This document shows positions 12,966 to 34,891 of a DNA stretch of 64,000 nt, piece after piece. The notes under the pieces were generated by a model. It was not told the DNA's origin. It was given only the letters and a program-made list of their open reading frames with translations, and made no database searches. The first letter of the stretch is position 1, and each line of letters opens with the position of its first letter. Source of the DNA: Bdellovibrionota bacterium (GTDB lineage Bacteria > Bdellovibrionota > UBA1018 > UBA923); assembly GCA_040754655.1 (NCBI GenBank), contig JBFMCE010000004.1, positions 1,740 through 65,739 on the forward strand, read 5' to 3'. Both the position numbers and the translations under genes were made by a program.

Positions 12966-13117
12966 TAGGGATCTCAACAAAAGCGCCGAAAGATGTCCAA
13001 AGTCTAGACAAGTATCTAGTTTATTGTGAACTAGAGCAAGTACAAAGCCAGTCTTTTCAATAAGATAGCGTTGGTATCTGCCATGCATTGATCTCTTATT
13101 TAAGAGAGAGAAAATGC

Positions 13118-14641
13118 ATGAAGAGACAGAGTTTTTTGAGAAGAGTATTGAGGTTGTTTTCGGTCGGGTTCCTTGTTGCTACGGCCTCAACAGTTTGTTT
13201 TTCATCCCTTTCCTTAGCGGAAGAGAATCGTACCCTTGGTGATGGCGCCGAAAAGAGAGTTCAAAAATCAGGTTTAGCCGTTCTAGAAGAATACAAAGCA
13301 AATATTGATCGAAAAATTCTGGAAGAGATCACCGCTAAAACCCAGGCTCGCGCAAATTTTGAGAAAGAACGCCATGCGGCTGAGCAAGCCGCGATGGACC
13401 ATGCCATCAAGACTTTCTTGAATTCAAACTCAACCGAGGCTGAGAGACTTAGGGCCGTTGAAGCTCTTGTTCCCCTTTCTGCGAAGTTCTTGAGTGAGCA
13501 CGCTGACTCGCTCGAGCTCATGAGGGGTGGTTATGCATCGGTCAATCCGGTGGTGCAATCGATCTTTTTCAGGTTGCAGGAAGTCAGCAAGAAGAAGATG
13601 GCCGATCCTCATGAGTACCGAGATGCTTCGAAAGTCTTGGCGTCACAAGACAAGTATGACTTGAAAGAGTCGCTTGAAGAGCTTTTCCCAATTAGGGAAT
13701 GGACGTGTTGGAAAGGAGAAGATCTTAGCGCCATTCAGGCTGATTTTGACCGACAGATTGCTGACGAAAAAGAATCAATTGAGGAAAAAAAACGTAAGAT
13801 CGCATCAATCGAACAGAGCCCTGAATTTTTGAGGGCAAAACAACTCAAGGTGATCGAAGAGAAGGTCAATGAGATTTTTGATTGCGCCACCTCTATTGGT
13901 AGCCAAGATGGCTGTGAAAGAGCGATAGCAAAACTTGTCGAGGGCTTTCCCTACGACGATTTTGATCTCGACTACAATGAAATGAGGATCGTCGATCCTG
14001 GTTACGCAAAAGACAGACTACGCGAACCTGTGTTTACCGCCGCTCAGAATGTGCATGATCAGCTAAAGTCAAAAAAGGTCAGGCTTCCCGACGAAATTCA
14101 GTCGCTCAAGGAGCTTATGGGTAAGAAATTCGGGCTTCTCTTTAATGAGAGGGTTTCGGATAAAAATCCTAAAGACCACCGTTATGCTCTGACTTCTTTT
14201 GGGCAAGATTATCTTTCTTTTTTAGTCTTTGGATATGGGCCATTTGATCCTAAACCTCGAAGCGTGCAAGTGCATCGCATTCCAGAGATCGTAGCTGAAG
14301 TTGAAAAGCTCAAGCAACTGGATAAGAAAAACTTTCCCGACGGAGTACCAAGATTACCGTTGAATTTACGTTATCATCCGATAAGCGCTGTTGAAAACTT
14401 GCAGTTTTTCAAGAAATACGGGCGAGAAGACCAACTGAAAGAAAAAAAGCAAAAGGTCACCGAGTGTTTTGCAGATAGAGCGGTGGTCGATGAAAAGATT
14501 AGGCAGCCGAAGAATGTGGGCAAGGACCTTCCTTCGGCTGGTGATGTTGCCGCATGGCGTACGGACTTGATCAAGGTTGTGAAGAAATACAGGGGCGATC
14601 TTGATGATCCGAAGGCGCTTAAGCCAAATGAGCTCTGGTAA
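13118..14641 (+). CDS. Hypothetical secreted protein, charged and coiled-coil rich
   Basis: The ATG at 13118 gives a signal peptide (MKRQSFLRRVLRLFSVGFLVATASTVCFSSLSLAEE). It is a long uninterrupted ORF with K/E-rich segments, and I recognise no family motif. Confidence 0.6.
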   Translation: MKRQSFLRRVLRLFSVGFLVATASTVCFSSLSLAEENRTLGDGAEKRVQKSGLAVLEEYKANIDRKILEEITAKTQARANFEKERHAAEQAAMDHAIKTFLNSNSTEAERLRAVEALVPLSAKFLSEHADSLELMRGGYASVNPVVQSIFFRLQEVSKKKMADPHEYRDASKVLASQDKYDLKESLEELFPIREWTCWKGEDLSAIQADFDRQIADEKESIEEKKRKIASIEQSPEFLRAKQLKVIEEKVNEIFDCATSIGSQDGCERAIAKLVEGFPYDDFDLDYNEMRIVDPGYAKDRLREPVFTAAQNVHDQLKSKKVRLPDEIQSLKELMGKKFGLLFNERVSDKNPKDHRYALTSFGQDYLSFLVFGYGPFDPKPRSVQVHRIPEIVAEVEKLKQLDKKNFPDGVPRLPLNLRYHPISAVENLQFFKKYGREDQLKEKKQKVTECFADRAVVDEKIRQPKNVGKDLPSAGDVAAWRTDLIKVVKKYRGDLDDPKALKPNELW

Positions 14642-20647: not shown

Positions 20648-20662
20648 GCGATGGAGGTTTTT

Positions 20663-21118
20663 ATGAAAGTAAAAGAATGTATGACGGATCAACCCGTCTT
20701 GTGCGGTTCTCTCGACAGTTTGTTTGAGTGCTCAAAGTTGATGTATCAAAAAAACGTCGGATATTTGCTCGTTATAGATGGCGACGACAAGTTCGTGGGC
20801 GTGATCACTGACCGTGATATCGTCTGCGGTTGCATAGCCCAGGGGTTTGATCCGCAAAGTACGCCGGTGACTGAGGTGATGGAACGCCGTTTTTTCACGC
20901 TCAAACCCGATCAAACGATAGATGAGGCTCTTCGCGTGATGAGTGAAAATGGGATTCGAAGGCTCCCGGTAATCGATGAGAACAGGTGCGTAGGTATTTT
21001 GTCTGTCGATGACCTCATCGTGAAAGAGGCGTGTGAGACCAAAGACATCGCGCCTATCTTCAAGCGACAGCTCTCTGAGCCGAGGTTGACACGGTCGACG
21101 GTCGGCGAGGCTGCCTGA
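20663..21118 (+). CDS. CBS domain pair protein
   Basis: GGAGG lies 6 nt upstream of the ATG at 20663. There are two CBS repeats (VGVITDRDIV ... GIRRLPVIDENRCVGILSVDDL). Confidence 0.8.
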   Translation: MKVKECMTDQPVLCGSLDSLFECSKLMYQKNVGYLLVIDGDDKFVGVITDRDIVCGCIAQGFDPQSTPVTEVMERRFFTLKPDQTIDEALRVMSENGIRRLPVIDENRCVGILSVDDLIVKEACETKDIAPIFKRQLSEPRLTRSTVGEAA

Positions 21119-21201
21119 GCGCTTCACATTCAAATCACGCTGCTTAAGACTTGTTTAGTCTGAGTTCGATGGTACCCCTTTCTGTTGGATGAGGGGGTAC
21201 C

Positions 21202-21984
21202 ATGCGAACAACCATTGTTTTCCTTACTGCCACCGTTTTGATCGGTGGTTTCGTTGCGCCATTCCATCTTCGGGCGCAACAAGCGGGCCCGGAGTATCTT
21301 GAGCTTTTGGGAATCGCCCAGCGGGCCTTGCGAGAGAAAAAGCTTCGAAACGTCGTCACGTCGGGCTCGGTTCAACCCGCAAATAGAGTCTCATCGATTT
21401 GGGCGAAACACCGTTTCTATCGAAAGGGTGAAACTTGGGTTGTCGATTTTACGTCTCGCGAAAGCGCGATCATGCGCAAGAGCAATGCGCCGGAAGATCA
21501 GGTTCTCGCGAAACGCAGGCCCTCTGCTTTTATATTCAGCGTCATCGGCGTGGAACCGAACAACAAGATGGCGCGAGTCGAAGTGAGGCAGAAGCTTGAA
21601 AAAGACGATGTGCCTGTCGATCCAAGGATCGATCACCTTGTCTTGCACATCAATGAAATCTTCGTCGTCGTAAAACAAGAAACGCATTTTCGCGATGGCG
21701 CCCCAGCCCATACCGTCGAATCCTCAAGCCTCTCAAACGTTTCAACCGGGTTTTCCGCTTATCCCGTTGATCTTCCGAACATCAACCTTGATGAGGGAAC
21801 GACGATAGCGGAGTTGCCCGAAGAACTTAGAGGAGAGGTTGATCCAAAGCAGGCGCTGGAGTTTCGTTCCACCGATCTCTACGGACGTTCGTTGTCGATG
21901 ATCTGGCGCGAAGGAGATGTTTGGCCTGTTTATGTGAAGAGTCCTACTGGAATCGCAGTACTGAGAACTGAGAGGAGAGACTAA
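21202..21984 (+). CDS. Secreted hypothetical protein, partner A1 of the transglutaminase-elicitor-like cassette
   Basis: Signal peptide (MRTTIVFLTATVLIGGFVAPFHLRAQQ). Its stop lies 1 nt before the next start. The C-terminal block ALEF..D.YGRSLSMIWREGDVWPVYVKSPTGIAVL is shared with the paralogue at 25074-25781. Confidence 0.7.
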   Translation: MRTTIVFLTATVLIGGFVAPFHLRAQQAGPEYLELLGIAQRALREKKLRNVVTSGSVQPANRVSSIWAKHRFYRKGETWVVDFTSRESAIMRKSNAPEDQVLAKRRPSAFIFSVIGVEPNNKMARVEVRQKLEKDDVPVDPRIDHLVLHINEIFVVVKQETHFRDGAPAHTVESSSLSNVSTGFSAYPVDLPNINLDEGTTIAELPEELRGEVDPKQALEFRSTDLYGRSLSMIWREGDVWPVYVKSPTGIAVLRTERRD

Positions 21985-21985
21985 A

Positions 21986-23161
21986 ATGTTCAGCAGAATT
22001 CTCTTCGTATTGTTGGCGACGATTCTTGTCGGGGTTGGATGCGGCAAGAAAAAAGACGAAAAGGCCGGTGAAAACGGCACGCAACCCGCGATGAGCCTTG
22101 ATCTTCAGAGCGGGTCAAATCTTTATGATCTCATGGCGCGTCATTCGAGGGCTGTGGTGAGCCCTCAACCGTGGGCAGGATACTGGTGGCCTTACGTAGG
22201 GCAAGGCATCGCGTCGACTTGGCGAGATGGCAGTGGGATGAGTCCTGCGGATAAATACGACGCCGCCTATAAAATCTTCCTTGAATCGCGGGGAGCAAAC
22301 ACCGCTGAATACAAATCAATGGCGGCCTGGGAAAGAACCAGGCACGGCCCGGGGCTAGCCAACGTCGAGTCATGGTGGGGACACTGCAACGGATGGGCGG
22401 CGGCCTCGTTGATGGTTCCTGAGCCGACGGCGCCCAAGGTCATCAACGGGATTCGTTTTGAGGTCAGAGATCTCAAAGCGATCTTGTCTGAGTCTTGGAT
22501 GGAGTTTTCAGGCGATTTCGTTGGCAATAGGGTGAACGCGCCGGGCGATACGGGAAGCGCCGCTTACTGGGACATTGCCCCAGCTCAGTTTCATTTGCTC
22601 TTGGCTCACAAGGTGGGAAGGCAAAATCGCGGTTTGATCCTCGACCGCCATACTGGTCATGAAATCTGGAACCAACCGCTTGTTGCTTACAAGTTCGAAC
22701 CTATCACTCCGGATGATTACTTGGGTGCTCACCCCTCGTTTCCCGAGATCCACCGAGTCAATGTCACCGCGAAGATCTGGTGGGCAAACGACAACGTCGC
22801 TCCGGACATGACTACAGGCGCCTTCAATATGGAAGAGAGTGAGTTCACTTCAAACCAATATTTCCCACGGCGTGATGCTCCCTTTCATGGGAGAAAACTC
22901 CGTTATGAATTGTGGCTCGATGCTCCCGCCGAGTTTGATGAGGCCGGCAATCTGATCCGCTCAGGCGATATCCTCATCACCGAGGAAGACGGCAGATACG
23001 TCGGGGGAGTTTGGAAAAACGGTTCGCATGGATCGATCAATGCTCATCCTGACTATATGTGGATGCCTCACGGGATACAGCATAGCAGCGGCTACAAGAA
23101 TCCTCGCCTCGATGATGCTTGGGTAAGGGAATATATTGGTACTCCGCATCATGGGAGCTGA
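21986..23161 (+). CDS. Lipoprotein resembling the GP42 / 'transglutaminase elicitor' family (putative Cys-dependent transglutaminase or protease), copy 1
   Basis: Lipobox LVGVGC. Conserved blocks are WAGYWWPY, WWGHCNGWAAAS, LILDRHTGHEIWNQPLVAYKFEP (compare Phytophthora Pep-13, VWNQPVRGFKVYE), HRVNVT, LRYELWLD and HPDYMWMP. The coding status is confident. The family assignment is from memory. Confidence 0.6.
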   Translation: MFSRILFVLLATILVGVGCGKKKDEKAGENGTQPAMSLDLQSGSNLYDLMARHSRAVVSPQPWAGYWWPYVGQGIASTWRDGSGMSPADKYDAAYKIFLESRGANTAEYKSMAAWERTRHGPGLANVESWWGHCNGWAAASLMVPEPTAPKVINGIRFEVRDLKAILSESWMEFSGDFVGNRVNAPGDTGSAAYWDIAPAQFHLLLAHKVGRQNRGLILDRHTGHEIWNQPLVAYKFEPITPDDYLGAHPSFPEIHRVNVTAKIWWANDNVAPDMTTGAFNMEESEFTSNQYFPRRDAPFHGRKLRYELWLDAPAEFDEAGNLIRSGDILITEEDGRYVGGVWKNGSHGSINAHPDYMWMPHGIQHSSGYKNPRLDDAWVREYIGTPHHGS

Positions 23162-23180
23162 AGAGGACTGCTAAAAAAAA

Positions 23181-23285
23181 TAGGGTAACGGATTTCGGTT
23201 CACGACAAACGGGTTCGGTTGACGGTTGACGGATTTCGGAGTTGGTTACCGGTCCCGTGGGATTTGGTCACCGTCGACCGCCCCA
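23181..23285. repeat. Dispersed intergenic repeat family, locus 2
   Basis: GGTAACGGATTTCGGTT, GGGTTCGGTTGACGGTTGACGG and GATTTCGGAGTTGGTTACCGGTC. The last matches 52367-52388 (GATTTCGGAGTCGGTACCGTC). Confidence 0.55.
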
Positions 23286-23345
23286 AGCCCTAGTTCATGA
23301 GTTTCCATTCCCACTTCAACTTGCGTTGGGTATCATCGAGATACG

Positions 23346-24935
23346 ATGATGCTACGGGCGAGAGTTCTTGCGGGGATAACGTTTTCAGCTTTGGTGACTT
23401 CGTTTTCCTTTCCTCCCTACCAGTTTGGGTTGCTCATGCTTGTAGGCTTGGTGCCTTTGTTCGTTGCGTTGGAAAGCGCGCAGACTTTAAGGCAAGCCGC
23501 GTTTCGCGGGTGGTTTTACGGGTTTGTCTCTAATGTTCTGGTGTGCAACTGGTTGGGAAGCGCGATTGAGACCTTTTCAAGCCTTCCCTGGCTTGCAAGC
23601 CAACTAGGAATCGTTCTTGTTTCGATCTTAGAGCAGTCTTCATGGGCAGTGTTCGCGGCGGCTAGGTTTTATGTCAATAAACGTCTCGGCATGCGGCCCC
23701 TGTTTTGGAGCGCGGCTGCCATCATGGCGCTAGATTCGATTTGGCCGAAACTTTTTCCAAACACGATGGGAAACGCTTTCTACAATGTTTCTTGGCTTGC
23801 GCAGGCCGCGGATCTCACTGGGGTCTGGGGTTTGACGGCGGTGATCGTCATTTCAAACGAAGCCTTGGCTCTGGGGTGGCTTTGGTTTGCCAAAGGAAAC
23901 CGCTTCGGTTTGAAGCGCATTGAAATCTTAAAGCATGCGTCGGTTGCGGTTCTTGTTCTCGTGGCAGTCAGTTCGTATGGCATTTACAGGAAAAAACAAA
24001 TCCAGGCCGTTCTTCTGCGGAAACCCGACAAGTCTTTTCCAGTCGCGATAGTGCAACCCAATATCAACGCGGTCGCGCAAATCCGCGGTCAGACCAACAA
24101 AGAGCTGGCGCGAAGCAAGGTCTTGACCGAGATGATTCGGCTGACCAATGCGGCTCTTGTTTTCAATCCGAAACTCGTCGTTTGGCCTGAAACGGCTTAT
24201 CCAGATACCTTTCATGGTGAGTCTCTTACCGAAAGCATCTTGGTGACTCAAACCCTTGACCGGTACCTTCGTGAGAACCAGGTCTCTCTTCTTTTCGGCG
24301 CGCGTGATCAGGTGGGCCATCGCAGGTTCAATGCGTTCATCTTGGCAAGTCCTGATCGGGGTGGCAGTCAACTCATTCGGCAAGTTTATCACAAGACGCA
24401 CCTTCTTGAGTTCGCGGAGCATGTGCCATTTGCCGACTCGTCGCCAGCTCTCGCAGAAACAGCGCGAAGTCTTGGCGCGAGCACGTTCAGCTACGGGGAA
24501 GGCCCCAAGAACCTGAGCCTTGATGGGATAAAGCTCGGGGTGATGATTTGCCTTGAGGGATTGTTTCCCGATTTCGTGAGAAGAACTGTCGCGGGCGGCG
24601 CCGAGATCCTCTTCAATGCCACAAATGACGCTTGGTTCGGCGACACGAGAGAGCCCTCCCTGCATCTTTATCTCACGGCGTTTCGAAGCATCGAGACACG
24701 GCGACCGTTGGTGCGCGCGACCAATACAGGCTATTCCACTGTGATCGGGATAGATGGGCAGCTTCGAATGAAGAGCAAACTTTTCACCGAAGATGTTATT
24801 TTTGACGACGTTCCGCTTTACAGCGGGATCAAAAGCCCATTTGTCTTTTGGGGGAACACACTTCTTCACCTCTCAGCTCTTTGGATGCTCTGGCCTTGGG
24901 CGACCACTTGGCTGCGACGGCGTAAAGCCTGTTGA
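23346..24935 (+). CDS. lnt: Apolipoprotein N-acyltransferase
   Basis: An N-terminal polytopic membrane domain plus a CN-hydrolase domain with VVWPETAYPD, YHKTHLLEFAEHVPF, the catalytic-Cys region VMICLEG, NDAWFG and VRATNTG. Confidence 0.9.
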   Translation: MMLRARVLAGITFSALVTSFSFPPYQFGLLMLVGLVPLFVALESAQTLRQAAFRGWFYGFVSNVLVCNWLGSAIETFSSLPWLASQLGIVLVSILEQSSWAVFAAARFYVNKRLGMRPLFWSAAAIMALDSIWPKLFPNTMGNAFYNVSWLAQAADLTGVWGLTAVIVISNEALALGWLWFAKGNRFGLKRIEILKHASVAVLVLVAVSSYGIYRKKQIQAVLLRKPDKSFPVAIVQPNINAVAQIRGQTNKELARSKVLTEMIRLTNAALVFNPKLVVWPETAYPDTFHGESLTESILVTQTLDRYLRENQVSLLFGARDQVGHRRFNAFILASPDRGGSQLIRQVYHKTHLLEFAEHVPFADSSPALAETARSLGASTFSYGEGPKNLSLDGIKLGVMICLEGLFPDFVRRTVAGGAEILFNATNDAWFGDTREPSLHLYLTAFRSIETRRPLVRATNTGYSTVIGIDGQLRMKSKLFTEDVIFDDVPLYSGIKSPFVFWGNTLLHLSALWMLWPWATTWLRRRKAC

Positions 24936-25073
24936 AGCGGCATTAGCGAAAATCACCTGCGCAGCCGATAGCTGGTTTCTTGCCGGTTGCGCGCTCTGAG
25001 CGCTTGTTATGCCAGTCGTCTTGAGTCTTCCATCTTGAGGCATAAGCTGGGTTTTCAAAGAGAGGGTATATTT

Positions 25074-25781
25074 ATGCCGCCCCGCCTGGTCTTGGGTTTT
25101 CTTTCGGTTCTCGGTTTTTTTTCGATGTTCTCGTTAAAGGCGCAAGAAATGAGCGACCCTCAAGTTTTGAAGGACTTAGAGGTAGCGCAGCGCCATGTTC
25201 TTCAGAAAAAGTCGAAGTTGGCGCGAATCTCAGAGCGTGGTTTGAGAGTCAATGAAGCAATCGCTCTGGATCACGTGCGTTACCAAGAGGGGCAGTCTTG
25301 GCGGCTTGCCGTGGCCTTACCCAAAGTCGATATGGCGAGGAAAGAAGCTTCCCGGTTTGAACCAGCCCCCTCTCACAGCATCAAACTTTATCAGTTCAAT
25401 GTTCTCTCATCTGATCGAGAGCGCGCCAAGGTCGAAGTGAGCGTTCCGGACCGAGATGCTTTTCTGGTCTCGATCGACTCGAAACTCAAGGTGACTCCAG
25501 AGAAGTCAGCTGCGATGCTGGGGTTTGATCTGTTCCCGGTCAGCATTCCGGCGCATTTTGGTGATGAGCTCGCAAGAATCGAAAACAAACCCAAGCTTCC
25601 CGGAATTTTTGATTCTCTACGAGACAAGATCGTTGAAATAGATGAAGGCGCAGCGCTTGAATTCAATGTTGAAGATTCTCTCGGAAGGCCCGTTCATGTC
25701 ATTTGGCAAGAAAACCATCCTTGGCCCGTCTATATGAGCGCACCCACAGGTGTAGCCGTGCTCTTAAAGGAGGATCGGTAA
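25074..25781 (+). CDS. Secreted hypothetical protein, partner A2 (paralogue of 21202-21984)
   Basis: The ATG at 25074 gives a signal peptide (MPPRLVLGFLSVLGFFSMFSLKAQE). The C-terminal block ALEFNVEDSLGRPVHVIWQENHPWPVYMSAPTGVAVL matches A1. Its stop abuts the next start (TAAATG). Confidence 0.7.
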   Translation: MPPRLVLGFLSVLGFFSMFSLKAQEMSDPQVLKDLEVAQRHVLQKKSKLARISERGLRVNEAIALDHVRYQEGQSWRLAVALPKVDMARKEASRFEPAPSHSIKLYQFNVLSSDRERAKVEVSVPDRDAFLVSIDSKLKVTPEKSAAMLGFDLFPVSIPAHFGDELARIENKPKLPGIFDSLRDKIVEIDEGAALEFNVEDSLGRPVHVIWQENHPWPVYMSAPTGVAVLLKEDR

Positions 25782-26879
25782 ATGAAGCGAATTTATCTTT
25801 CATTGGCGATTCTTCTTACTTTGATGATGGCGTCTGGTTGCGGCGACGATGACAACGAACAGACGGGCAACGGCGATTCCGAGGCCGGCGTGCCGTACCC
25901 CGACGTGCCCGATGGCATGACTGCAGGGAACGCGGCTTCAAATAAAAACTTTGCTACTCTGCAGCGCAGGGTCTCATCGGCATCGGTGAGCCCTGCTCCT
26001 TGGGCAGGTTATTGGTGGCCGTACTCAACCAATGGCATCGCAGGTGCGGCTGCAAAGCATGATCTTGCGCGCGGAACTGGAGGCTCACAGTCGTGGGAGG
26101 TCTCAAATCACGGACAGGGTCTTGCGGGAGTTGCGGATTGGTGGGGGCATTGCAATGGCTGGGCAGCTGCGGCTTTGCTGATGCCTGAACCCAAGGGGCC
26201 GAAAACAATAAATGGCGTTGAGTTCAGCATCAGCGATCGCAAGGCGCTGCTCTCAGAGGTTTTCATGGAAGTCACCGGCGATTTCCTCGGCAATCGCGTG
26301 AACAACCCCGGTGATACTTCAAGCGGGGCTTTTCGCGATATCGTGCCGGCGCAATTCTATTTGATGCTCACGAATGTCATTGGTCTTCAGCGACGCGCGT
26401 TCATCATGGACCGTTTCACGGGTGTCGAAGTATGGAACCATCCTGTGGTCGCTTACGCGAATTCCCCGGTTCGGAGCGAAGACTACCTGGGTGTTGACCC
26501 TGAATTTCCGCAAGTGCACCGCGTGAATGTGACAACCCAAATTTGGTGGGTCGAAGACAACGTGGACCCCAACATCGTCACACCCGCTTTTGACCCTTCG
26601 AATCTTGGCTCGGCGTTTAAAAGTCGCACGTTAAGGTATGAGTTGTGGCTTGATGCAGCGCCTCAATTTGATGGCGCTGGAAACCTCGCGGCGGCAGGTG
26701 ATGTTATTCTGGCCAATGACGCGGGCCGCGCTGTCGGAGGAAGCTGGAAAAACGGGGCATTGCCTCTGGTCAATTCTTATCCTGACTATATCTGGATTCC
26801 CACGGGAGCGGCGCGTTCCTCCGGGCACAAAAACCCCCGCATTGATGACGCCTGGATTCGTCAGAATCTCGGTGGTTGA
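25782..26879 (+). CDS. Lipoprotein resembling the GP42 / 'transglutaminase elicitor' family, copy 2
   Basis: Lipobox MMASGC. It has the same conserved blocks as copy 1 (WAGYWWPY, WWGHCNGWAAAA, IMDRFTGVEVWNHPVVAY, HRVNVT, LRYELWLD, YPDYIWIP). Confidence 0.6.
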   Translation: MKRIYLSLAILLTLMMASGCGDDDNEQTGNGDSEAGVPYPDVPDGMTAGNAASNKNFATLQRRVSSASVSPAPWAGYWWPYSTNGIAGAAAKHDLARGTGGSQSWEVSNHGQGLAGVADWWGHCNGWAAAALLMPEPKGPKTINGVEFSISDRKALLSEVFMEVTGDFLGNRVNNPGDTSSGAFRDIVPAQFYLMLTNVIGLQRRAFIMDRFTGVEVWNHPVVAYANSPVRSEDYLGVDPEFPQVHRVNVTTQIWWVEDNVDPNIVTPAFDPSNLGSAFKSRTLRYELWLDAAPQFDGAGNLAAAGDVILANDAGRAVGGSWKNGALPLVNSYPDYIWIPTGAARSSGHKNPRIDDAWIRQNLGG

Positions 26880-26899
26880 TTTCAACCAAATCAATCCCG

Positions 26900-26935
26900 T
26901 TGGCCTCTCGGCGGATCTTTACAATCCGTTCCAAC
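26900..26935. repeat. Dispersed intergenic repeat family, locus 3 (short)
   Basis: ACAATCCGTTCCA at 26921-26933 is identical to 44045-44057. Confidence 0.45.
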
Positions 26936-26983
26936 TGATGTGATCTCTCGAAGTCGATCGGTTCGTTCTATTTTGGGGGGATC

Positions 26984-27619
26984 ATGTTCAAAACAATGCT
27001 ATTGGCTCTGCTCTTCGGGATTCCCGTTTCTTCTTTGGCGCTGAATTCGCGTCAGCTTGCTGCGGAAGACTCTCTGGGGCGGTTTCGCAACACTTATTAT
27101 TATGTTGTCCGTGAGCAAGACTACGAGCATCTACCCAAAAACGATGTCCTGCTCGCACCTGAGGGAGAAGTGCTTGCGCGAGTGAGCAAGGCTTTTCGCG
27201 AGGCGCTGGATATCGAGGGCACAGGACGGCTGATTGATGGGCGATTGGTGAATTTCGCGCGGCTAAAGGCAGGTCGCATCCGGTATATCGTGACGACTTC
27301 ACCTTTTGGTTTGGGCGTGGGGAATTGCGAGCTTCGTCCGTTTAGGACGGTCGCAGTCGATCCCAAAACCATCCCGTTGGGCGCAACGGTGCGCATCGCC
27401 GAAACCGTAGGAATGGTTCTGCCGAACGGCGAGATTCACGACGGCATTTGGCATGCGGAAGATCGTGGAGGAGCGATTCGCGGTGATCGTATCGATCTTT
27501 TCGTCGGAGAAGGGGATCAAGGCAGCGTCCTCAAGTCGGTGGGCATCAAGACGCTCAAACCCTTGACCGTTTTTCTTATAGAGAACCCCCGGGCATCCTC
27601 ATGCGTGAACAAACGTTGA
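26984..27619 (+). CDS. Secreted 3D-domain protein (MltA-like lytic transglycosylase C-terminal domain)
   Basis: Signal peptide plus a 3D-domain signature (AVDPKTIPLGATVRI ... EDRGGAIRGDRIDLFVG). Confidence 0.7.
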   Translation: MFKTMLLALLFGIPVSSLALNSRQLAAEDSLGRFRNTYYYVVREQDYEHLPKNDVLLAPEGEVLARVSKAFREALDIEGTGRLIDGRLVNFARLKAGRIRYIVTTSPFGLGVGNCELRPFRTVAVDPKTIPLGATVRIAETVGMVLPNGEIHDGIWHAEDRGGAIRGDRIDLFVGEGDQGSVLKSVGIKTLKPLTVFLIENPRASSCVNKR

Positions 27620-28353: not shown

Positions 28354-28761
28354 TCATTCCGGCCGTAAAACCAGCGGATAGCGGATAGCCCGGGATTTAC
28401 GATCTACAGGCGCGGGAAAAGTGATTTTCTTCAGTCTCTTCAAGACGCAGCTGTAAAGATCAGGATCGGGAGCGCTCATCTGATCAATCTGGGCCTTGAT
28501 GACTTTTCCTTCAGGATCGATTTGAAATTTCAATTGGATGTTCTGGGTGGTGCCCGTCTGAATGCTAACGCTGTCACGGGCGCACGACACGAACTTTTCA
28601 GCGTTGCCCTGCATAGTTCTTCCTACCGGACCTTCGGTAGGAGATTCGCCCATCGAGGCGTCGGGCACTTCCCCAATGCCGGCGCAGCCCAAAAGAGCCT
28701 GGCTTGCGCCGACAAGAGTCAATAAAAGAAAGATCAAAAGCAACGGATTGCGGGCAGGCAT
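28354..28761 (-). CDS. Lipoprotein with a TonB-C / AgmX-PglI-like C-terminal domain
   Basis: The internal ATG gives a lipoprotein signal (MPARNPLLLIFLLLTLVGASQALLGC). The C-terminal pattern LKFQIDPEGKVIKAQI...LYSCVLKRLKKITFPAP resembles the TonB_C-like fold. Confidence 0.45.
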   Translation of the reverse strand: MPARNPLLLIFLLLTLVGASQALLGCAGIGEVPDASMGESPTEGPVGRTMQGNAEKFVSCARDSVSIQTGTTQNIQLKFQIDPEGKVIKAQIDQMSAPDPDLYSCVLKRLKKITFPAPVDRKSRAIRYPLVLRPE

Positions 28762-28837
28762 GCAAATAAAAGAGGTTTGACGGGACGTCATGAACTGATC
28801 TTACCATTACCATTTGCTTGCTTGAAGCATTAAGCAT

Positions 28838-29260: not shown

Positions 29261-29335
29261 GTCGCCTGTAACGCATCGTCAATTGGCCAGGCGCACGGGG
29301 AATAGGGTTTGCACAAGCACGGGAAGGAGGCTTTT

Positions 29336-29848
29336 ATGGTCCCAGAAAATAAACTTCCCGAAAACCCAGAAAACCGTCAGCAAGACCAGAGCTCGTCAAG
29401 AGGGGCTGAATCCCAAGGTAAAAGTAAAAGACCAAGGGGACTTGCTGCCGCTGATCCTGAGACGCGGCGAGCCGTGGCAAGAAAAGGCGGCGAAGCCGTT
29501 TCAAGAAATAGAAAACACATGGCCGAGATTGGTCGAAAGGGCGGTGAAGCCGTTTCGCAAGACCGCAGGCATATGGCCGAGATTGGTCGAAAGGGCGGTG
29601 AGGCTGTAAGCCAAAATCGCGAGCACATGGCTGAAATCGGTCGTAAAGGCGGCGAAGCGCGCAGTGGGCACGGACACCCGGAGGATCAGGAAACGTCAGA
29701 TGAAAGAAGCCCTGGTTCAGTCCATCCTATCCGTCAACAACAACAGCAAGGAGAATTGAGTTCAGACGAGACAATGCAAAATCCGCAGGGCGAAGCAGGA
29801 GTAGGCTCACCCAGCGAGTTTCAAAAGAAGACTGCGGCCGAAGGTTAA
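29336..29848 (+). CDS. KGG-repeat general stress protein (YciG/GsiB-like)
   Basis: GGAGG lies 6 nt upstream of the ATG at 29336. There are four KGG motifs (RKGGEAVS), three of them in near-perfect 18-aa tandem repeats HMAEIGRKGGEAVSQxRx. Confidence 0.75.
   Translation: MVPENKLPENPENRQQDQSSSRGAESQGKSKRPRGLAAADPETRRAVARKGGEAVSRNRKHMAEIGRKGGEAVSQDRRHMAEIGRKGGEAVSQNREHMAEIGRKGGEARSGHGHPEDQETSDERSPGSVHPIRQQQQQGELSSDETMQNPQGEAGVGSPSEFQKKTAAEG
29462..29662 (+). repeat. In-frame 54-bp tandem repeat (one degenerate and three well-conserved units) encoding the KGG motifs
   Basis: The nucleotide string atggccgagattggtcgaaagggcggtga recurs with a 54-nt period (starts near 29519, 29573, 29627). Confidence 0.85.
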
Positions 29849-32252: not shown

Positions 32253-32708
32253 TCAGGTTTTGTTTTTGGCCGCGGCCAACCGTGGATTTGAATCACACAC
32301 ATCGCGTTCAAGCGCTTTTATCAAGCCTTTGTCAAAACCCCAGCTGATGGCGATGCGGTCGGCTTCAAGGTCGTTTGCGATCGGATCGCTACTCAGGTTT
32401 TTCGCGCAACGATGGCCCAATTCATGCGCAAGAATTGCGACTGCCTCGTCTCTGGGGCGATCAAGCAAGCTGCGATTCATCTGCAGAAGAAAAGCTCCCT
32501 GTGGAAGAGCATGCTCGATGCGCACGATTTGGCTCATTTCAACCGGCGGAAGGATCACCAAGGGCTGAGGACTCGCAAGGATCTGCGAAAGCGCGGGTTC
32601 CGGAATTTTGCTCCAAACCTCGGCCCACAGGCGAAGCCACTGGGGCTGCTCTTTCAACCACGCATGCCAGGGTGCTGAACACCAATTCGCGAGAAGGGCG
32701 TATTTCAT
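32253..32708 (-). CDS. Small hypothetical protein with an HExxH zinc-metallopeptidase-like motif
   Basis: 151 aa with motif AILAHELGHRCAK and no signal peptide. Its start overlaps the stop of the upstream 728-aa ORF by 4 nt (ATGA). Confidence 0.5.
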   Translation of the reverse strand: MKYALLANWCSAPWHAWLKEQPQWLRLWAEVWSKIPEPALSQILASPQPLVILPPVEMSQIVRIEHALPQGAFLLQMNRSLLDRPRDEAVAILAHELGHRCAKNLSSDPIANDLEADRIAISWGFDKGLIKALERDVCDSNPRLAAAKNKT

Positions 32709-34891
32709 CGCGTATCCCCTAGCATTTCGCGCAAGCGCTGGTTGAGGAGGGGGCGGTCTTCAAACCACTTCCGATCTTGGGTTGCTTTCAAAACTTCCAA
32801 GTAACCTTTCTCATGCTTCGTGCCGCGCCAAGCATCTTGGTTTTTATAAAGCGCATCGATATATCGCACTCTCTGGCTTGAGCTGCCAGAGCGCGCTTCT
32901 CTTTCAAGAAAGTTCAAAATTTGCTCTCGGTGGGTCTCAGGCCATTTTCCCAAGGCAGCGATGCTTATGATCTCCCTTTCTTGGTTTCGTTTAAGGTGAT
33001 CATTCTGCAAAAGGATGTCCCAAAGCTCAGAAACAAATTCTTTGGGAACTTCTCGGCCTGAGTTGGCCAAGGCCCTGACGGCTTTGACGTGGTGCAGACC
33101 CTTTTTTTGTCTTAGCCATTTCATCATCGCTACCCAGAGGCGCTTGTGTTGTTTCGGATCTTTAGGCCAGGGCACCTTGTCTAGAAGGCCGCTGATTTCA
33201 GGATTTTTTACGAGAGCAGCGATGTATTTCGGCCAAAACTTCTTCTCAAGTCTCTCGGGAATAGCGGTCTTCGCCGCATGAGGGACAAGTTTATCAAAGA
33301 ACCGCGGAATTTCTTGTGTGAACATTGCCCACGCTTCTTCGTTGACGCTTTCTGGCCAAGCCTTCTCTCTTTCGAGAAGGTCATTGAAGATGCGGTGTCG
33401 AGGCGTATCGGTTTCTCGGAATGATGGGACAGCAGCACTCCAAAGCGCCGCCCTTCGTTCTTCCGACACCCTATTGAATCCGCCACGCGTGATAAGCGAT
33501 TGGATGAACGCTGCCTGGCCTTTTGAGAGCTCTTTTGTTTGCCCCAGAAGCCGCACTGCCTCTTCCTGAATTAGAGGATCATAAGTATAGCCAGGACGTT
33601 GAAAACGAACGAAGAGTTCATCTTCCAATGAGGGCGAAAATCCTCTTCGGTACTCAGGCTCAGCCATCCAGGTCCACGCCTGTCGGATGTAGCTCTCGGC
33701 GCCTCCATAATAGGCCTCTGCAAGGCCAGCGATGGCGGCAAAGTTCTGATGCCCCTTAAGTGCTGCAGCTTTGATGAAGTTTTCGATGCGTTTTTGATCG
33801 TGAGGCTTCCACTGCGCCCTTTTTTGAGCAAGGCGCTCTGCTGCTGCCTTGGCCGAGTTTAGATCTCCTTGCTGGAGCAGGCTAAACAGATGTCCAATCT
33901 TTTGCGGTAGTTTTGTTTTTGGATTTGATTTGCCAGACTTCTGTGGAGGTTTGCCGCCTTTAGCGAGAATGGCGGCTGACACTAGCGTGTTTTGGATATA
34001 AGCCCTTCTTCTGACTTCATAGGGCCAAGCACTGTGCCAATCTACGATCAGCCACTCTTGTGTGTTTGGCTTGCGTCGGATGTCGCTAAAGTTTGCATTG
34101 AGAATACGCGCCAGTGCGATTCTGTCTTCATATTCTTCTCGATAAAGAGGCGAGGTTTGAAGTTCTTTGGGATCTTCAAAACGCCTGAATTTATTCTCTT
34201 CGGGGATGGCGACAGTCAGTCGAGTTTTTGCTTCGGAATTGCTATTCTCATCGATGGCCTGCGCACTTCGATAAATTGATAAGATGTCTTTCTCTTTTCC
34301 CGGAGTGTGCAACCGACACCAGTCTAAATATTCGGTGAGCATGCCTTTTTTTTCGGCAAACTTCACTTCTATGAAAGTGGGAAGATAGTGGTGACCTACC
34401 AAAGACTCCATCGCCTCATGCACTCCGATGATATCAATGATGTGGGGCGGGTACTTGTCGCCATCAACTACCGCAAGTGGAGTCTCTGGAGAACCAAATG
34501 CCCCGCCATAATCGTCACACAGTTCAGCAAGTTCTAAGACTGCAGGGTCTTTCTGCTGTTCGGCAGGAATCTTGCTTTTTCGAAAGACGTAGTAGGTGAA
34601 TTCTGGCACGTTCTCGGCAACCCTGACTTTACGGCTTTCGACAAAACCCTGCTTCTCATATCGTTTGAGTAACGCTAAAATTGTCGCTGCTTTTGCGCCA
34701 TCGATTTGACTTTCGAGCCGAAGTGAGAGGGTGCTCCTCATGCGGGGAGCATGGTCCGCAAAAACTCGTAGGAGGGGACCAAGGCAGAAGCGGTCGGCCG
34801 CAGTCGCTTGAGAAGGCGAACCCGCCAAAAACACCAGACACAGTAGGGCTCTAAGGCTCGAGGGCCTTGAAGTAAAAAGGGAAATCCCCAT
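32705..34891 (-). CDS. Large hypothetical secreted protein (728 aa), helical-repeat-like C-terminal half
   Basis: A long uninterrupted ORF with a signal peptide (LLCLVFLAGSPSQATA-AD). I recognise no catalytic motif. The C-terminal 400 aa are W/K/E-rich and helical. Confidence 0.6.
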   Translation of the reverse strand: MGISLFTSRPSSLRALLCLVFLAGSPSQATAADRFCLGPLLRVFADHAPRMRSTLSLRLESQIDGAKAATILALLKRYEKQGFVESRKVRVAENVPEFTYYVFRKSKIPAEQQKDPAVLELAELCDDYGGAFGSPETPLAVVDGDKYPPHIIDIIGVHEAMESLVGHHYLPTFIEVKFAEKKGMLTEYLDWCRLHTPGKEKDILSIYRSAQAIDENSNSEAKTRLTVAIPEENKFRRFEDPKELQTSPLYREEYEDRIALARILNANFSDIRRKPNTQEWLIVDWHSAWPYEVRRRAYIQNTLVSAAILAKGGKPPQKSGKSNPKTKLPQKIGHLFSLLQQGDLNSAKAAAERLAQKRAQWKPHDQKRIENFIKAAALKGHQNFAAIAGLAEAYYGGAESYIRQAWTWMAEPEYRRGFSPSLEDELFVRFQRPGYTYDPLIQEEAVRLLGQTKELSKGQAAFIQSLITRGGFNRVSEERRAALWSAAVPSFRETDTPRHRIFNDLLEREKAWPESVNEEAWAMFTQEIPRFFDKLVPHAAKTAIPERLEKKFWPKYIAALVKNPEISGLLDKVPWPKDPKQHKRLWVAMMKWLRQKKGLHHVKAVRALANSGREVPKEFVSELWDILLQNDHLKRNQEREIISIAALGKWPETHREQILNFLEREARSGSSSQRVRYIDALYKNQDAWRGTKHEKGYLEVLKATQDRKWFEDRPLLNQRLREMLGDTR

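What the first reader, a model, noticed from the sequence alone, without database searches (positions are those of the whole stretch)
21986..23161. Pep-13-like motif: bacterial lipoproteins resembling the Phytophthora GP42 transglutaminase (plant immune elicitor) family
Copy 1 contains HEIWNQPLVAYKFEP and copy 2 (25782-26879) contains VEVWNHPVVAYANSP. As I remember it, the Pep-13 elicitor epitope of Phytophthora GP42 is VWNQPVRGFKVYE, so the W-N-Q/H-P core and the downstream basic or aromatic positions line up. Outside oomycetes, the GP42 family has been reported mainly in marine Vibrio. A strictly conserved Cys in WWGHCNGWAAA, together with a conserved Asp (DR.TG) and His (HRVNV), could form a Cys-His-Asp triad of the kind described for GP42. 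A lipid-anchored, duplicated version in this lineage would extend the family. It would also raise the question of which substrate is cross-linked or cleaved.
Basis: partly seen in the sequence, partly recalled or inferred. Interest (0 to 1): 0.7.

Follow-up and report, generated by a model that had tools for sequence, protein, structure and literature searches.

The report
GP42-type enzyme lipoproteins with partner genes

Summary
ORFs 21986-23161 (TG1) and 25782-26879 (TG2) are 47% identical paralogues. Both match Pfam PF16683 TGase_elicitor (E 1.5e-28 and 1.3e-25) and the GP42 crystal structure 3TW5 (E 1e-21). The AlphaFold model (pLDDT 90.5) hits only 3TW5. The Pep-13 stretch aligns residue for residue, and the Cys of WWGHCNGW aligns with GP42 Cys290.

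The proposed triad is only partly right. The His of HRVNV is not conserved (35 of 227). GP42's own catalytic His, directly after the Cys, is Asn here. An invariant His sits directly before the Cys instead. All 234 family members examined have a His at one or both of these positions.

The family is not rare: 3,659 clusters at 50% identity, and the window's type is the most common in my sample.

The new element is a conserved secreted partner gene of about 235-260 aa with no Pfam match. It lies immediately upstream of each enzyme gene and is translationally coupled to it. It is present at 55 of 80 genome loci and fused to the enzyme in two MAGs. Its fold is tentatively LolA-like.

The chemistry (cross-linking or hydrolysis) and the substrate are unresolved. 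Verdict: a new variant of a known kind, of moderate interest.

The parts
21202..21984 (+). Partner 1: a 260-aa secreted protein with a signal peptide, no Cys and no Pfam match, from a conserved orphan family.
   Evidence: ORF; no Pfam or NCBIfam match. It is 27% identical to partner 2 and 33% identical to the gene upstream of the TGase in L002. A family profile finds it directly upstream of the TGase gene in 55 of 80 genome loci. The AF2 model has pLDDT 67.5 and gives weak LolA-superfamily fold hits.
21973..21977 (+). Shine-Dalgarno AGGAG for TG1, inside the 3' end of partner 1, 8 nt before the ATG. The partner's stop codon and the TG1 start codon are 1 nt apart.
   Evidence: Sequence read.
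21986..23161 (+). TG1: a 391-aa lipoprotein of the GP42 / TGase_elicitor family, 'HCN' subtype.
   Evidence: PF16683 E 1.5e-28; 3TW5 E 1e-21. AF2 pLDDT 90.5, pTM 0.87. Foldseek finds only 3tw5_A below E 0.001, at E 2.9e-16 with TM 0.54/0.61.
22028..22042 (+). TG1 lipobox VGVGC (aa 15-19). Cys19 is the predicted lipidated residue. Residues about 20-44 are a low-confidence tether in the model.
   Evidence: pLDDT profile.
22373..22396 (+). TG1 active-site motif WWGHCNGW (aa 130-137). Cys134 is the predicted nucleophile at the N-terminus of helix 134-143. His133 is the proposed general base. Asn135 replaces the GP42 His.
   Evidence: Alignment to 3TW5; secondary structure. Conservation: C 234/234, H133 222/234, N135 209/234.
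22643..22702 (+). TG1 hairpin DRHTGHE-IWNQPLVAYKFEP. It holds Asp220 (231/234) and the Pep-13-equivalent strand with Trp228, Asn229 and Pro231 (near-invariant).
23346..24935 (+). lnt (apolipoprotein N-acyltransferase), lying between the two cassettes. This position is conserved in related contigs.
   Evidence: LNT_N plus CN_hydrolase. Same gene order in L086 and L087.
25074..25781 (+). Partner 2: 235 aa if counted from the ATG that precedes the signal peptide. The mechanical ORF starts at TTG 24987.
   Evidence: family profile E 1.1e-56.
25768..25773 (+). Shine-Dalgarno AGGAGG for TG2, 8 nt before the ATG. The partner-2 stop codon abuts the TG2 start codon.
25782..26879 (+). TG2: a 365-aa paralogous lipoprotein. 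Lipobox MASGC at nt 25827-25841; WWGHCNGW at nt 26139-26162; Pep-13-like VWNHPVVAYANSP at nt 26430-26468.
   Evidence: PF16683 E 1.3e-25; 3TW5 E 4.2e-20; 47% identity to TG1; coordinates.
26984..27619 (+). A 3D-domain (MltA/RlpA-like cell-wall-binding) secreted protein. It follows TG2 in all three syntenic contigs. Whether it belongs to the module is uncertain.
   Evidence: PF06725 E 2.5e-13; synteny.

Best explanation
The locus holds two copies of a two-gene module. In each copy a secreted partner protein (about 235-260 aa, an orphan family, tentatively with a LolA-like half-barrel fold) is translationally coupled to a lipoprotein with the GP42 / TGase_elicitor fold. That fold is a divergent papain-like thiol enzyme.

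Shown:
- Homology to GP42 and a shared predicted fold.
- An invariant Cys at the N-terminus of a helix. It is the only Cys in the mature protein.
- A His next to the Cys in every family member.
- Tight genetic coupling to the partner.

Inferred mechanism:
- Cys134 (TG1) or Cys124 (TG2) attacks a carbonyl, either a Gln side chain or a peptide or isopeptide bond, and forms a thioester acyl-enzyme.
- His133 or His123, directly before the Cys, serves as general base. It takes the role of GP42's His directly after the Cys.
- It would be oriented by the conserved acidic and amide residues (Asp220, Asn229, Asp196, Asp356).
- The acyl-enzyme is resolved either by a Lys amine (a transglutaminase cross-link) or by water (a protease, amidase or deamidase).
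- The enzyme is tethered to a membrane of the cell envelope by its lipid anchor. The partner, exported to the same compartment, binds it as a chaperone, inhibitor, pro-domain in trans, or carrier.

My sub-probabilities:
- True PF16683 homologue with the GP42 fold: 0.97.
- Catalytically active thiol enzyme: 0.8.
- His at position -1 is the base: 0.55.
- The chemistry is protein Gln-Lys cross-linking rather than hydrolysis: about 0.4.
- The partner physically binds the enzyme: 0.7.
For: Homology and fold:
- Pfam and PDB sequence matches.
- A high-confidence model whose only significant structural neighbour is 3TW5.

Active site:
- Cys 234/234.
- His at -1 and/or +1 in 234/234: 222 have His at -1, 17 have His at +1 (5 of these at both), none lacks both.
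- GP42's 'CH' catalytic arrangement is described in PMC10318531.
- TG1 and TG2 have no second Cys apart from the lipobox Cys, so the Cys cannot form an intramolecular disulfide.
- The Trp-Asn-x-Pro strand and Asp220 are near-invariant. This agrees with the published link between the Pep-13 region and TGase activity (PMC6770897).

Lipoprotein:
- Lipoboxes.
- lnt lies in the same conserved gene block.

Partner:
- Shine-Dalgarno sites inside the partner's 3' end, with 0-1 nt between stop and start.
- 4-nt overlaps at the same junction in other contigs.
- Present directly upstream at 55 of 80 loci.
- Apparent N-terminal fusions in P0055/L008 and P0052/L009.
- Signal peptides throughout the family.
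Against: - No member of the 'HCN' subtype has been characterised, so the activity is extrapolated from one oomycete enzyme whose catalytic His is not conserved here.
- No model coordinates were available. The positions of His133, Asp220 and Asn229 relative to the Cys were not checked.
- The HPD His (His354, 205/231) and His120 (204/230) are alternative bases. TG2 has Tyr at the His354 position.
- The partner model has modest confidence (pLDDT 67.5) and its LolA-like hits are weak (E 7e-3 to 5e-2).
- The partner also accompanies family members that lack a lipobox (for example P0049/L004), which argues against a pure lipid-anchor-carrier role.
- Each fusion rests on a single MAG contig and could be a frameshift artefact.
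Confidence: 0.72

Rival explanations
1. One reading: GP42-like Ca2+-dependent transglutaminases that use a triad of Cys (WWGHCNGW), His (HRVNV) and Asp (DR.TG) to cross-link envelope or surface proteins.
For: Family membership and the equivalence of the Cys are confirmed. Asp220 is near-invariant and is present in GP42.
Against: His256 is His in only 35 of 227 homologues and Tyr in 113. GP42 itself does not use a strand His; it uses the His directly after the Cys (PMC10318531), and that position is Asn here. Neither Ca2+ dependence nor transamidation can be tested from sequence.
Confidence: 0.05
2. The enzymes are hydrolases rather than cross-linkers: envelope cysteine peptidases, amidases or deamidases. 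They would be comparable in logic to periplasmic transglutaminase-like proteases such as LapG. They would act on envelope proteins or peptidoglycan-linked peptides, and the partner would act as an inhibitor or pro-domain.
For: The fold is papain-like, and the same superfamily contains both hydrolases and transferases (PMC10318531). The changed residues around the Cys (H-C-N rather than x-C-H) could alter how the acyl-enzyme is resolved. A cell-wall-binding 3D-domain gene is syntenic. The gene order and the fusions look like an N-terminal pro-domain.
Against: The only characterised family member is a transglutaminase. No substrate is indicated by the gene context. The synteny with the 3D gene is restricted to the window's own lineage.
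Confidence: 0.35
3. The partner is a dedicated LolA-like carrier. It would shield the acyl chains of the lipidated enzyme and ferry it across the periplasm to the outer membrane or cell surface, or release it.
For: Foldseek hits of the partner model are almost all LolA-superfamily proteins: 3bk5, 4z48, LolA 7z6w, 4ki3 and 7tpm, with probability up to 1.0. The enzymes are lipoproteins. lnt lies between the cassettes.
Against: The fold match is weak (E at least 7e-3, TM 0.35-0.49) and comes from a model with pLDDT 67.5. There is no sequence-level link to LolA families. The partner also occurs with enzymes that have no lipobox and as a covalent fusion, where a shuttle role makes little sense.
Confidence: 0.2
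4. The proteins are catalytically inactive structural or adhesive lipoproteins that merely keep the GP42 fold.
For: GP42's catalytic His position is Asn. TG2 also lacks the HPD His.
Against: The Cys is invariant and the neighbouring G-H-C-N-G-W residues are invariant or nearly so across hundreds of sequences at 25-60% identity. That pattern is typical of an active site, not a relic.
Confidence: 0.05

Closest known systems
Phytophthora sojae GP42 transglutaminase (PDB 3TW5; Pfam PF16683 TGase_elicitor), the source of the Pep-13 elicitor
   Same: - Homologous by profile and by predicted fold.
- The Cys nucleophile sits at the same helix N-terminus.
- The Trp-Asn-x-Pro strand (Pep-13), Asp220, the HPD motif and the PWAGxYWP motif are conserved.
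- Both are secreted.
   Different: - About 21% identity overall.
- The catalytic His of GP42's 'CH' motif is Asn here, and an invariant His precedes the Cys (GHCNGW against GICHAW).
- The window proteins have a lipoprotein anchor, where GP42 is a cell-wall glycoprotein.
- There are no additional Cys residues, whereas the oomycete-type sequences carry flanking Cys.
- A separate partner gene is present.
- The related sequences come from groundwater and freshwater bacteria, so there is no plant context.
Bacterial GP42 homologues reported from marine Vibrio (Reiss et al. 2011, as cited in PMC4915311)
   Same: They are bacterial members of the same family, and none has a known function.
   Different: I could not retrieve the Vibrio sequences. 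The bacterial sequences in my sample that share GP42's xCH motif are a minority (12 of 234, plus 5 with His on both sides), and they differ from the window's HCN type. The window's relatives are mostly labelled Bdellovibrionota.
Papain-like / transglutaminase-like cysteine enzymes with relocated catalytic residues, such as Streptomyces MTG, Atg4B and BTLCP/LapG (PMC10318531)
   Same: A thiol nucleophile at a helix N-terminus. The catalytic His has moved to different positions in different members. Some are periplasmic, Ca2+-dependent and act on envelope proteins.
   Different: There is no significant sequence or Foldseek match to any of them: only 3TW5 passes. A His at position Cys-1 is not among the variants mentioned in the passages of that survey that I read.
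LolA / LolB / LolA-like superfamily (for the partner)
   Same: A predicted open beta-barrel of about 10 strands with N-terminal helices. The partner is periplasmic and encoded next to a lipoprotein. The best Foldseek hits all fall in this superfamily.
   Different: Sequence methods detect no similarity. The structural scores are weak. The partner's conserved motifs (Y..G..W.V, P.DLP, DDFFGRP..W..GDPWP) are its own.

Membership tests
Pfam PF16683 TGase_elicitor (GP42 family) | Significant match to the family profile above the gathering score | tested here: met
   100 bits and 90.4 bits against a cut-off of 25; E 1.5e-28 and 1.3e-25.
Pfam PF16683 TGase_elicitor (GP42 family) | GP42 fold (the unique fold of 3TW5) | tested here: met
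   The AF2 model (pLDDT 90.5) matches 3tw5_A at Foldseek E 2.9e-16, probability 1.00, TM 0.54/0.61. The next hit has E 0.06.
Pfam PF16683 TGase_elicitor (GP42 family) | Nucleophilic Cys equivalent to GP42 Cys290 | tested here: met
   Cys134 and Cys124 align with residue 128 of the 3TW5 chain, which is Ser; from memory that Ser is the C290S mutation. The Cys is invariant in 234/234 and lies at a helix N-terminus.
GP42-type catalytic site ('CH' motif) | Catalytic His immediately after the Cys (PMC10318531) | tested here: not met
   Position +1 is Asn in TG1, in TG2 and in 209 of 234 relatives. His is at position -1 instead.
GP42-type catalytic site ('CH' motif) | Asp or Asn partners of the His (an Asp on a non-core helix, an Asn on strand beta2) | tested here: inconclusive
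   Candidates are conserved: Asp162, Asp196, Asp220 and Asn229. Without model coordinates or the Reiss 2011 text (not held) they could not be mapped.
GP42 family | Pep-13 core, with Trp and Pro required for activity | tested here: met
   Trp228 230/234, Asn229 231/234, Pro231 227/234. The stretch aligns in register with VWNQPVRGFKV. That Trp and Pro are the critical residues is from memory of Brunner 2002, which is not held.
GP42 family | Ca2+-dependent protein-glutamine gamma-glutamyltransferase activity | not testable with these tools
   Needs enzyme assays.
Bacterial lipoproteins | Signal peptide ending in a lipobox Cys | tested here: met
   VGVGC (Cys19) and MASGC (Cys20) fit the PROSITE-type pattern, as do 52 of 102 homologues. 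This is a pattern match only; no dedicated predictor was available.
LolA-like superfamily (partner protein) | Unclosed beta-barrel fold with a hydrophobic cavity | tested here: inconclusive
   Foldseek gives consistent but weak LolA-superfamily hits (E 7e-3 to 5e-2, TM 0.35-0.49) from a model of pLDDT 67.5.
LolA-like superfamily (partner protein) | Match to LolA, LolB or LolA_like sequence profiles | tested here: not met
   None of 23 family members matches these Pfam families even at E up to 10. There is no PDB sequence hit.
Anti-phage defence systems | Match to PADLOC models | tested here: not met
   No hits for the enzymes or the partners.

The most novel reading that the evidence does not exclude
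The partner and enzyme form a dedicated two-component envelope-remodelling system characteristic of Bdellovibrionota. A LolA-like periplasmic protein would hold, inhibit or deliver a lipid-anchored GP42-fold thiol enzyme that cross-links or trims envelope proteins of the cell itself or of its prey. The 'H-C-N' active site would be the ancestral bacterial form. Intermediates with His on both sides of the Cys (HCH) would then lead to the oomycete 'C-H' site. This would reverse or refine the published picture of a transfer from Vibrio to oomycetes.
Probability: 0.15. Interest if true: 0.6.

Novelty: new variant of a known kind. Interest (0 to 1): 0.42.

Why it matters
The published literature I could search still describes GP42 relatives as confined to oomycetes and a few marine Vibrio. 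The sequence data here show a family of several thousand bacterial clusters. Most of those I sampled have a different arrangement of residues around the catalytic Cys, and none of that type has been studied. The either/or placement of the His (before or after the Cys, never absent) is a tidy natural experiment on how catalytic residues migrate in papain-like enzymes.

The conserved, translationally coupled and occasionally fused partner protein offers a concrete handle on regulation or trafficking. It also offers a first step towards finding the substrate in Bdellovibrionota, whose envelope biology is of interest because cultured members of the phylum are predators.

For plant immunity the practical message is negative. 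The Pep-13-like stretch is a conserved core strand of the fold and is found widely in environmental bacteria.

Tried and rejected
- I tried to read Reiss et al. 2011 (PMC3234954) and Brunner et al. 2002 (PMC139088) for the exact GP42 triad and the Pep-13 mutagenesis. Neither is held. A search for 'Cys290' found nothing.
The structure tool returns no coordinates and /data holds only FASTA files. Only secondary structure, confidence values and Foldseek scores were usable.
- Searching for the partner in the 5.8-billion-protein index returned only 3 and then 6 proteins. The alignment for its structure prediction was therefore shallow (9 sequences) and the model is mediocre. The 55 genome loci that show the partner's conservation could not be used in that prediction.
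- Partner against Pfam at E up to 10, and against PDB sequences: nothing relevant.
- NCBIfam gave no match for the enzymes or the partners. PADLOC gave none. A defence-system reading is rejected.
- The window's own contig could not be looked up for provenance. Rfam and tRNA scans of the window were empty. The organism is therefore inferred only from the labels of related MAGs.
- I considered claiming that the family is enriched in predatory bacteria. I rejected this because the 80 loci shown are ranked by similarity to the query, which biases them.
- I looked for partner-like domains in the N-terminal regions of oomycete-type and other long family members. Only the two fusions were found.
- No papers were found on PF16683 members in Bdellovibrio or other non-Vibrio bacteria.
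Full report
**1. The observation**

The quoted peptides are at the stated places:
- HEIWNQPLVAYKFEP in TG1 and VEVWNHPVVAYANSP in TG2.
- WWGHCNGWAAA, DR.TG and HRVNV in both.

The two proteins are 47% identical along their whole length (E 2e-128).

**2. Family membership**

- Both proteins match Pfam PF16683 (TGase_elicitor) at 100 and 90 bits against a 25-bit cut-off.
- Both match the only solved structure of the family, P. sojae GP42 (3TW5), at E 1e-21 and 4e-20.
- In those alignments IWNQPLVAYKF lies exactly opposite VWNQPVRGFKV. The Cys of WWGHCNGW lies opposite Ser128 of the crystallised chain. From memory, that Ser is the C290S substitution of the inactive mutant that was crystallised.
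- An AlphaFold2 model of TG1, built on 89 homologues, has mean pLDDT 90.5 and pTM 0.87. It places Cys134 as the first residue of helix 134-143, the hallmark position of papain-like nucleophiles.
- Foldseek against the PDB finds one significant neighbour, 3tw5_A (E 2.9e-16, probability 1.00, TM 0.54/0.61). The next hit has E 0.06.

Homology to GP42 is therefore established by sequence and by predicted fold.

**3.

A survey of papain-like enzymes describes GP42 as lacking the canonical strand His. According to that survey, GP42 uses a His directly after the Cys (a 'CH' motif). That His interacts with an Asn on strand beta2 or with an Asp on a non-core helix (PMC10318531).

In 3TW5 the motif reads G-I-(C/S)-H-A-W. 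In TG1 and TG2 it reads G-H-C-N-G-W. I aligned 234 family members to a family profile:

| Position (TG1 numbering) | Conservation |
|---|---|
| Cys134 | 234/234 |
| His133 (Cys-1) | 222/234 |
| Position 135 (Cys+1) | Asn 209, His 17 |
| His at both -1 and +1 | 5 sequences |
| His at neither | 0 |
| Asn229 (in the Pep-13 strand) | 231/234 |
| Asp196 | 228/231 |
| Asp356 | 230/231 |

- His256 is rejected as the catalytic base.
- TG2 has only six His residues. Only two of them, the equivalents of His120 and His133, are conserved across the family.
- Each mature protein has a single Cys besides the lipobox Cys.
- The geometric check could not be done, because no coordinates are returned.

My inference is that His133 does the job of GP42's His directly after the Cys. 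This rests on the strict either/or pattern and is not demonstrated.

**4. How common the family is**

A profile search of 1.84 billion representatives (50% identity clusters) finds 3,659 clusters at E up to 1e-3 and 1,350 at E up to 1e-30.

Among the 249 proteins retrieved, counted by a simple motif pattern:
- GHCN[GA]W: 190.
- GP42-type G[ILVF]CHAW: 15. These are oomycete-looking sequences plus some bacterial ones.
- GHCHAW: 5.

This sample is biased towards my query.

A pattern scan of 185,579 species genomes for WWGHCNG found 263 relatives. The 80 most similar are mostly labelled Bdellovibrionota (Bacteriovoracaceae, Oligoflexia, Bdellovibrionia). They are followed by Planctomycetota, Acidobacteria, Myxococcales, Bradymonadales and Desulfosarcina, from groundwater, lakes and similar sources.

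All close hits already carry the PF16683 label and are named 'hypothetical protein'. The literature I could search still states that GP42 homologues occur only in oomycetes and some marine Vibrio (PMC4915311). I found no paper on the bacterial branch.

**5. Lipoprotein status**

Both N-termini fit the lipobox pattern (VGVGC, MASGC). So do 52 of 102 close homologues, including nearly all of the closest 33 or so. A sister clade has ordinary signal peptides. Residues about 20-44 of TG1 have low confidence in the model, consistent with a flexible tether.

**6.

Each enzyme gene is preceded by an ORF for a secreted protein with no Cys and no Pfam or NCBIfam match:
- 21202-21984.
- 24987/25074-25781. 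The likely true start is ATG 25074, just before the signal peptide.

The two are 27% identical.

Evidence for coupling to the enzyme gene:
- Stop and start codons are 1 and 0 nt apart, with AGGAG and AGGAGG sites 8 nt upstream of the enzyme ATGs.
- The same arrangement, often with a 4-nt overlap, occurs in other contigs. The upstream proteins there are homologous.
- A profile of the family finds it directly upstream of the enzyme gene in 55 of 80 genome loci.
- Seven of the loci without it carry Bdellovibrionota-type labels. At least five of these are second paralogues in MAGs whose other copy does have the partner.
- In two MAG lineages the partner appears fused to the N-terminus of the enzyme (P0055/L008, P0052/L009). 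The fused locus L085 has the same neighbours as the unfused L004.
- A weak relative that keeps the three family motifs lies upstream of the enzyme in a non-Bdellovibrionota MAG (hhalign E 6e-4, probability 28%).

The family motifs are Y..G..W.V, P.DLP and DDFFGRP..W..GDPWP.

The AF2 model of partner 1 is only moderate (pLDDT 67.5, nine sequences). Its Foldseek hits are consistently LolA-superfamily proteins, but weak: 3bk5, DUF1329 4z48, and LolA 7z6w, 4ki3 and 7tpm, with E 7e-3 to 5e-2. Sequence methods do not support the link. I treat 'LolA-like fold' as tentative.

**7. Wider context**

The order CBS gene, partner, enzyme, lnt, partner, enzyme, 3D-domain gene, then Lon further on, is shared by the window and by two contigs whose enzymes are only 49-59% identical. 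The duplication and the embedded lnt are therefore old in this lineage. Other Bdellovibrionota carry a single cassette, or partner-enzyme-enzyme, in different surroundings. There is no match to defence-system models.

**8. Mechanism and rivals**

Best supported: envelope-anchored thiol enzymes with the GP42 fold that form a Cys134 acyl-enzyme, with a neighbouring His as base, and that work together with a co-exported partner.

What I cannot decide:
- Whether the acyl-enzyme is resolved by an amine (cross-linking, as in GP42) or by water (peptidase, amidase or deamidase). I give about 0.4 and 0.35.
- Whether the partner is an inhibitor or pro-domain in trans, a chaperone, or a LolA-like carrier. 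The N-terminal gene order and the fusions favour the first. The tentative fold and the lipid anchor favour the last. The presence of the partner beside family members without a lipobox counts against a pure carrier.

A pseudoenzyme reading is unlikely, given the invariance of the G-H-C-N-G-W block.

**9. Verdict**

The specific triad is wrong for the His. The 'rare family' framing reflects the literature rather than the sequence databases.

These are members, by homology, of a known Pfam family. They belong to an uncharacterised subtype with a relocated catalytic His and a dedicated partner protein. I rate this as a new variant of a known kind, with interest about 0.4.

Noticed in passing
window 20651-27619; L086 6278-13529; L087 6414-16335: The gene order CBS-domain gene, partner, TGase, lnt, partner, TGase, 3D-domain gene is conserved at only 49-59% TGase identity. 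The lipoprotein-maturation gene lnt sits between two lipoprotein cassettes.
   Followed up: partly
L008 3146-4936 (P0055, also L085 5001-6686); L009 3164-5038 (P0052 appears to be the same type of fusion): Apparent natural fusions of the partner domain to the N-terminus of the TGase domain in two groundwater MAGs. Each rests on a single contig, so a frameshift artefact is not excluded.
   Followed up: partly
window 24987-25781: The mechanical ORF for partner 2 starts at TTG 24987. The signal peptide begins at ATG 25074 (MPPRLVLGFLSVLGFFSMFSLKAQE), which is probably the true start.
   Followed up: partly
window 29309-29848 (tandem repeats at 29464-29658): A 179-aa protein built of KGG stress-protein repeats (PF10685, E 1.2e-10), encoded by a 54-bp tandem repeat of 2.6 copies. 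A KGG gene lies at the same relative place in L086.
   Followed up: partly
window 28354-28791 (- strand): A 145-aa ORF with a lipoprotein-like N-terminus (…ALLGCAG…) and no Pfam match, between the GNAT gene and the KGG gene.
   Followed up: no
L071 2184-6207 and L079 3098-7046 (Acidobacteria MAGs): TGase_elicitor proteins of about 850 aa. Each is preceded by two small secreted proteins (132-164 aa, no Pfam match) with overlapping starts, and followed by a small secreted protein that in L071 is a PEBP-family member (PF01161). This may be a different accessory set for the same enzyme family.
   Followed up: partly
L070 1653-5806 (Planctomycetia MAG): A 685-aa family member lies directly downstream of a 678-aa protein with a caspase domain (Peptidase_C14) plus DUF4384.
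   Followed up: no
L065 3128-3826: A 232-aa lipoprotein upstream of the TGase in a non-Bdellovibrionota MAG aligns weakly with the partner profile (hhalign E 6e-4) and keeps its three motifs. The partner family may therefore reach beyond Bdellovibrionota.
   Followed up: partly
window 1-64000: No tRNA genes and no Rfam family at gathering score in the whole 64 kb. GC is even at 0.48-0.55. The content looks chromosomal and housekeeping (Lon, AcrB-type pump, histidine kinase, MFS transporter).
   Followed up: yes
window 13088-14641 (+) and 32705-34891 (-): Two large ORFs (517 and 728 aa) with no Pfam match at E up to 0.001.
   Followed up: no
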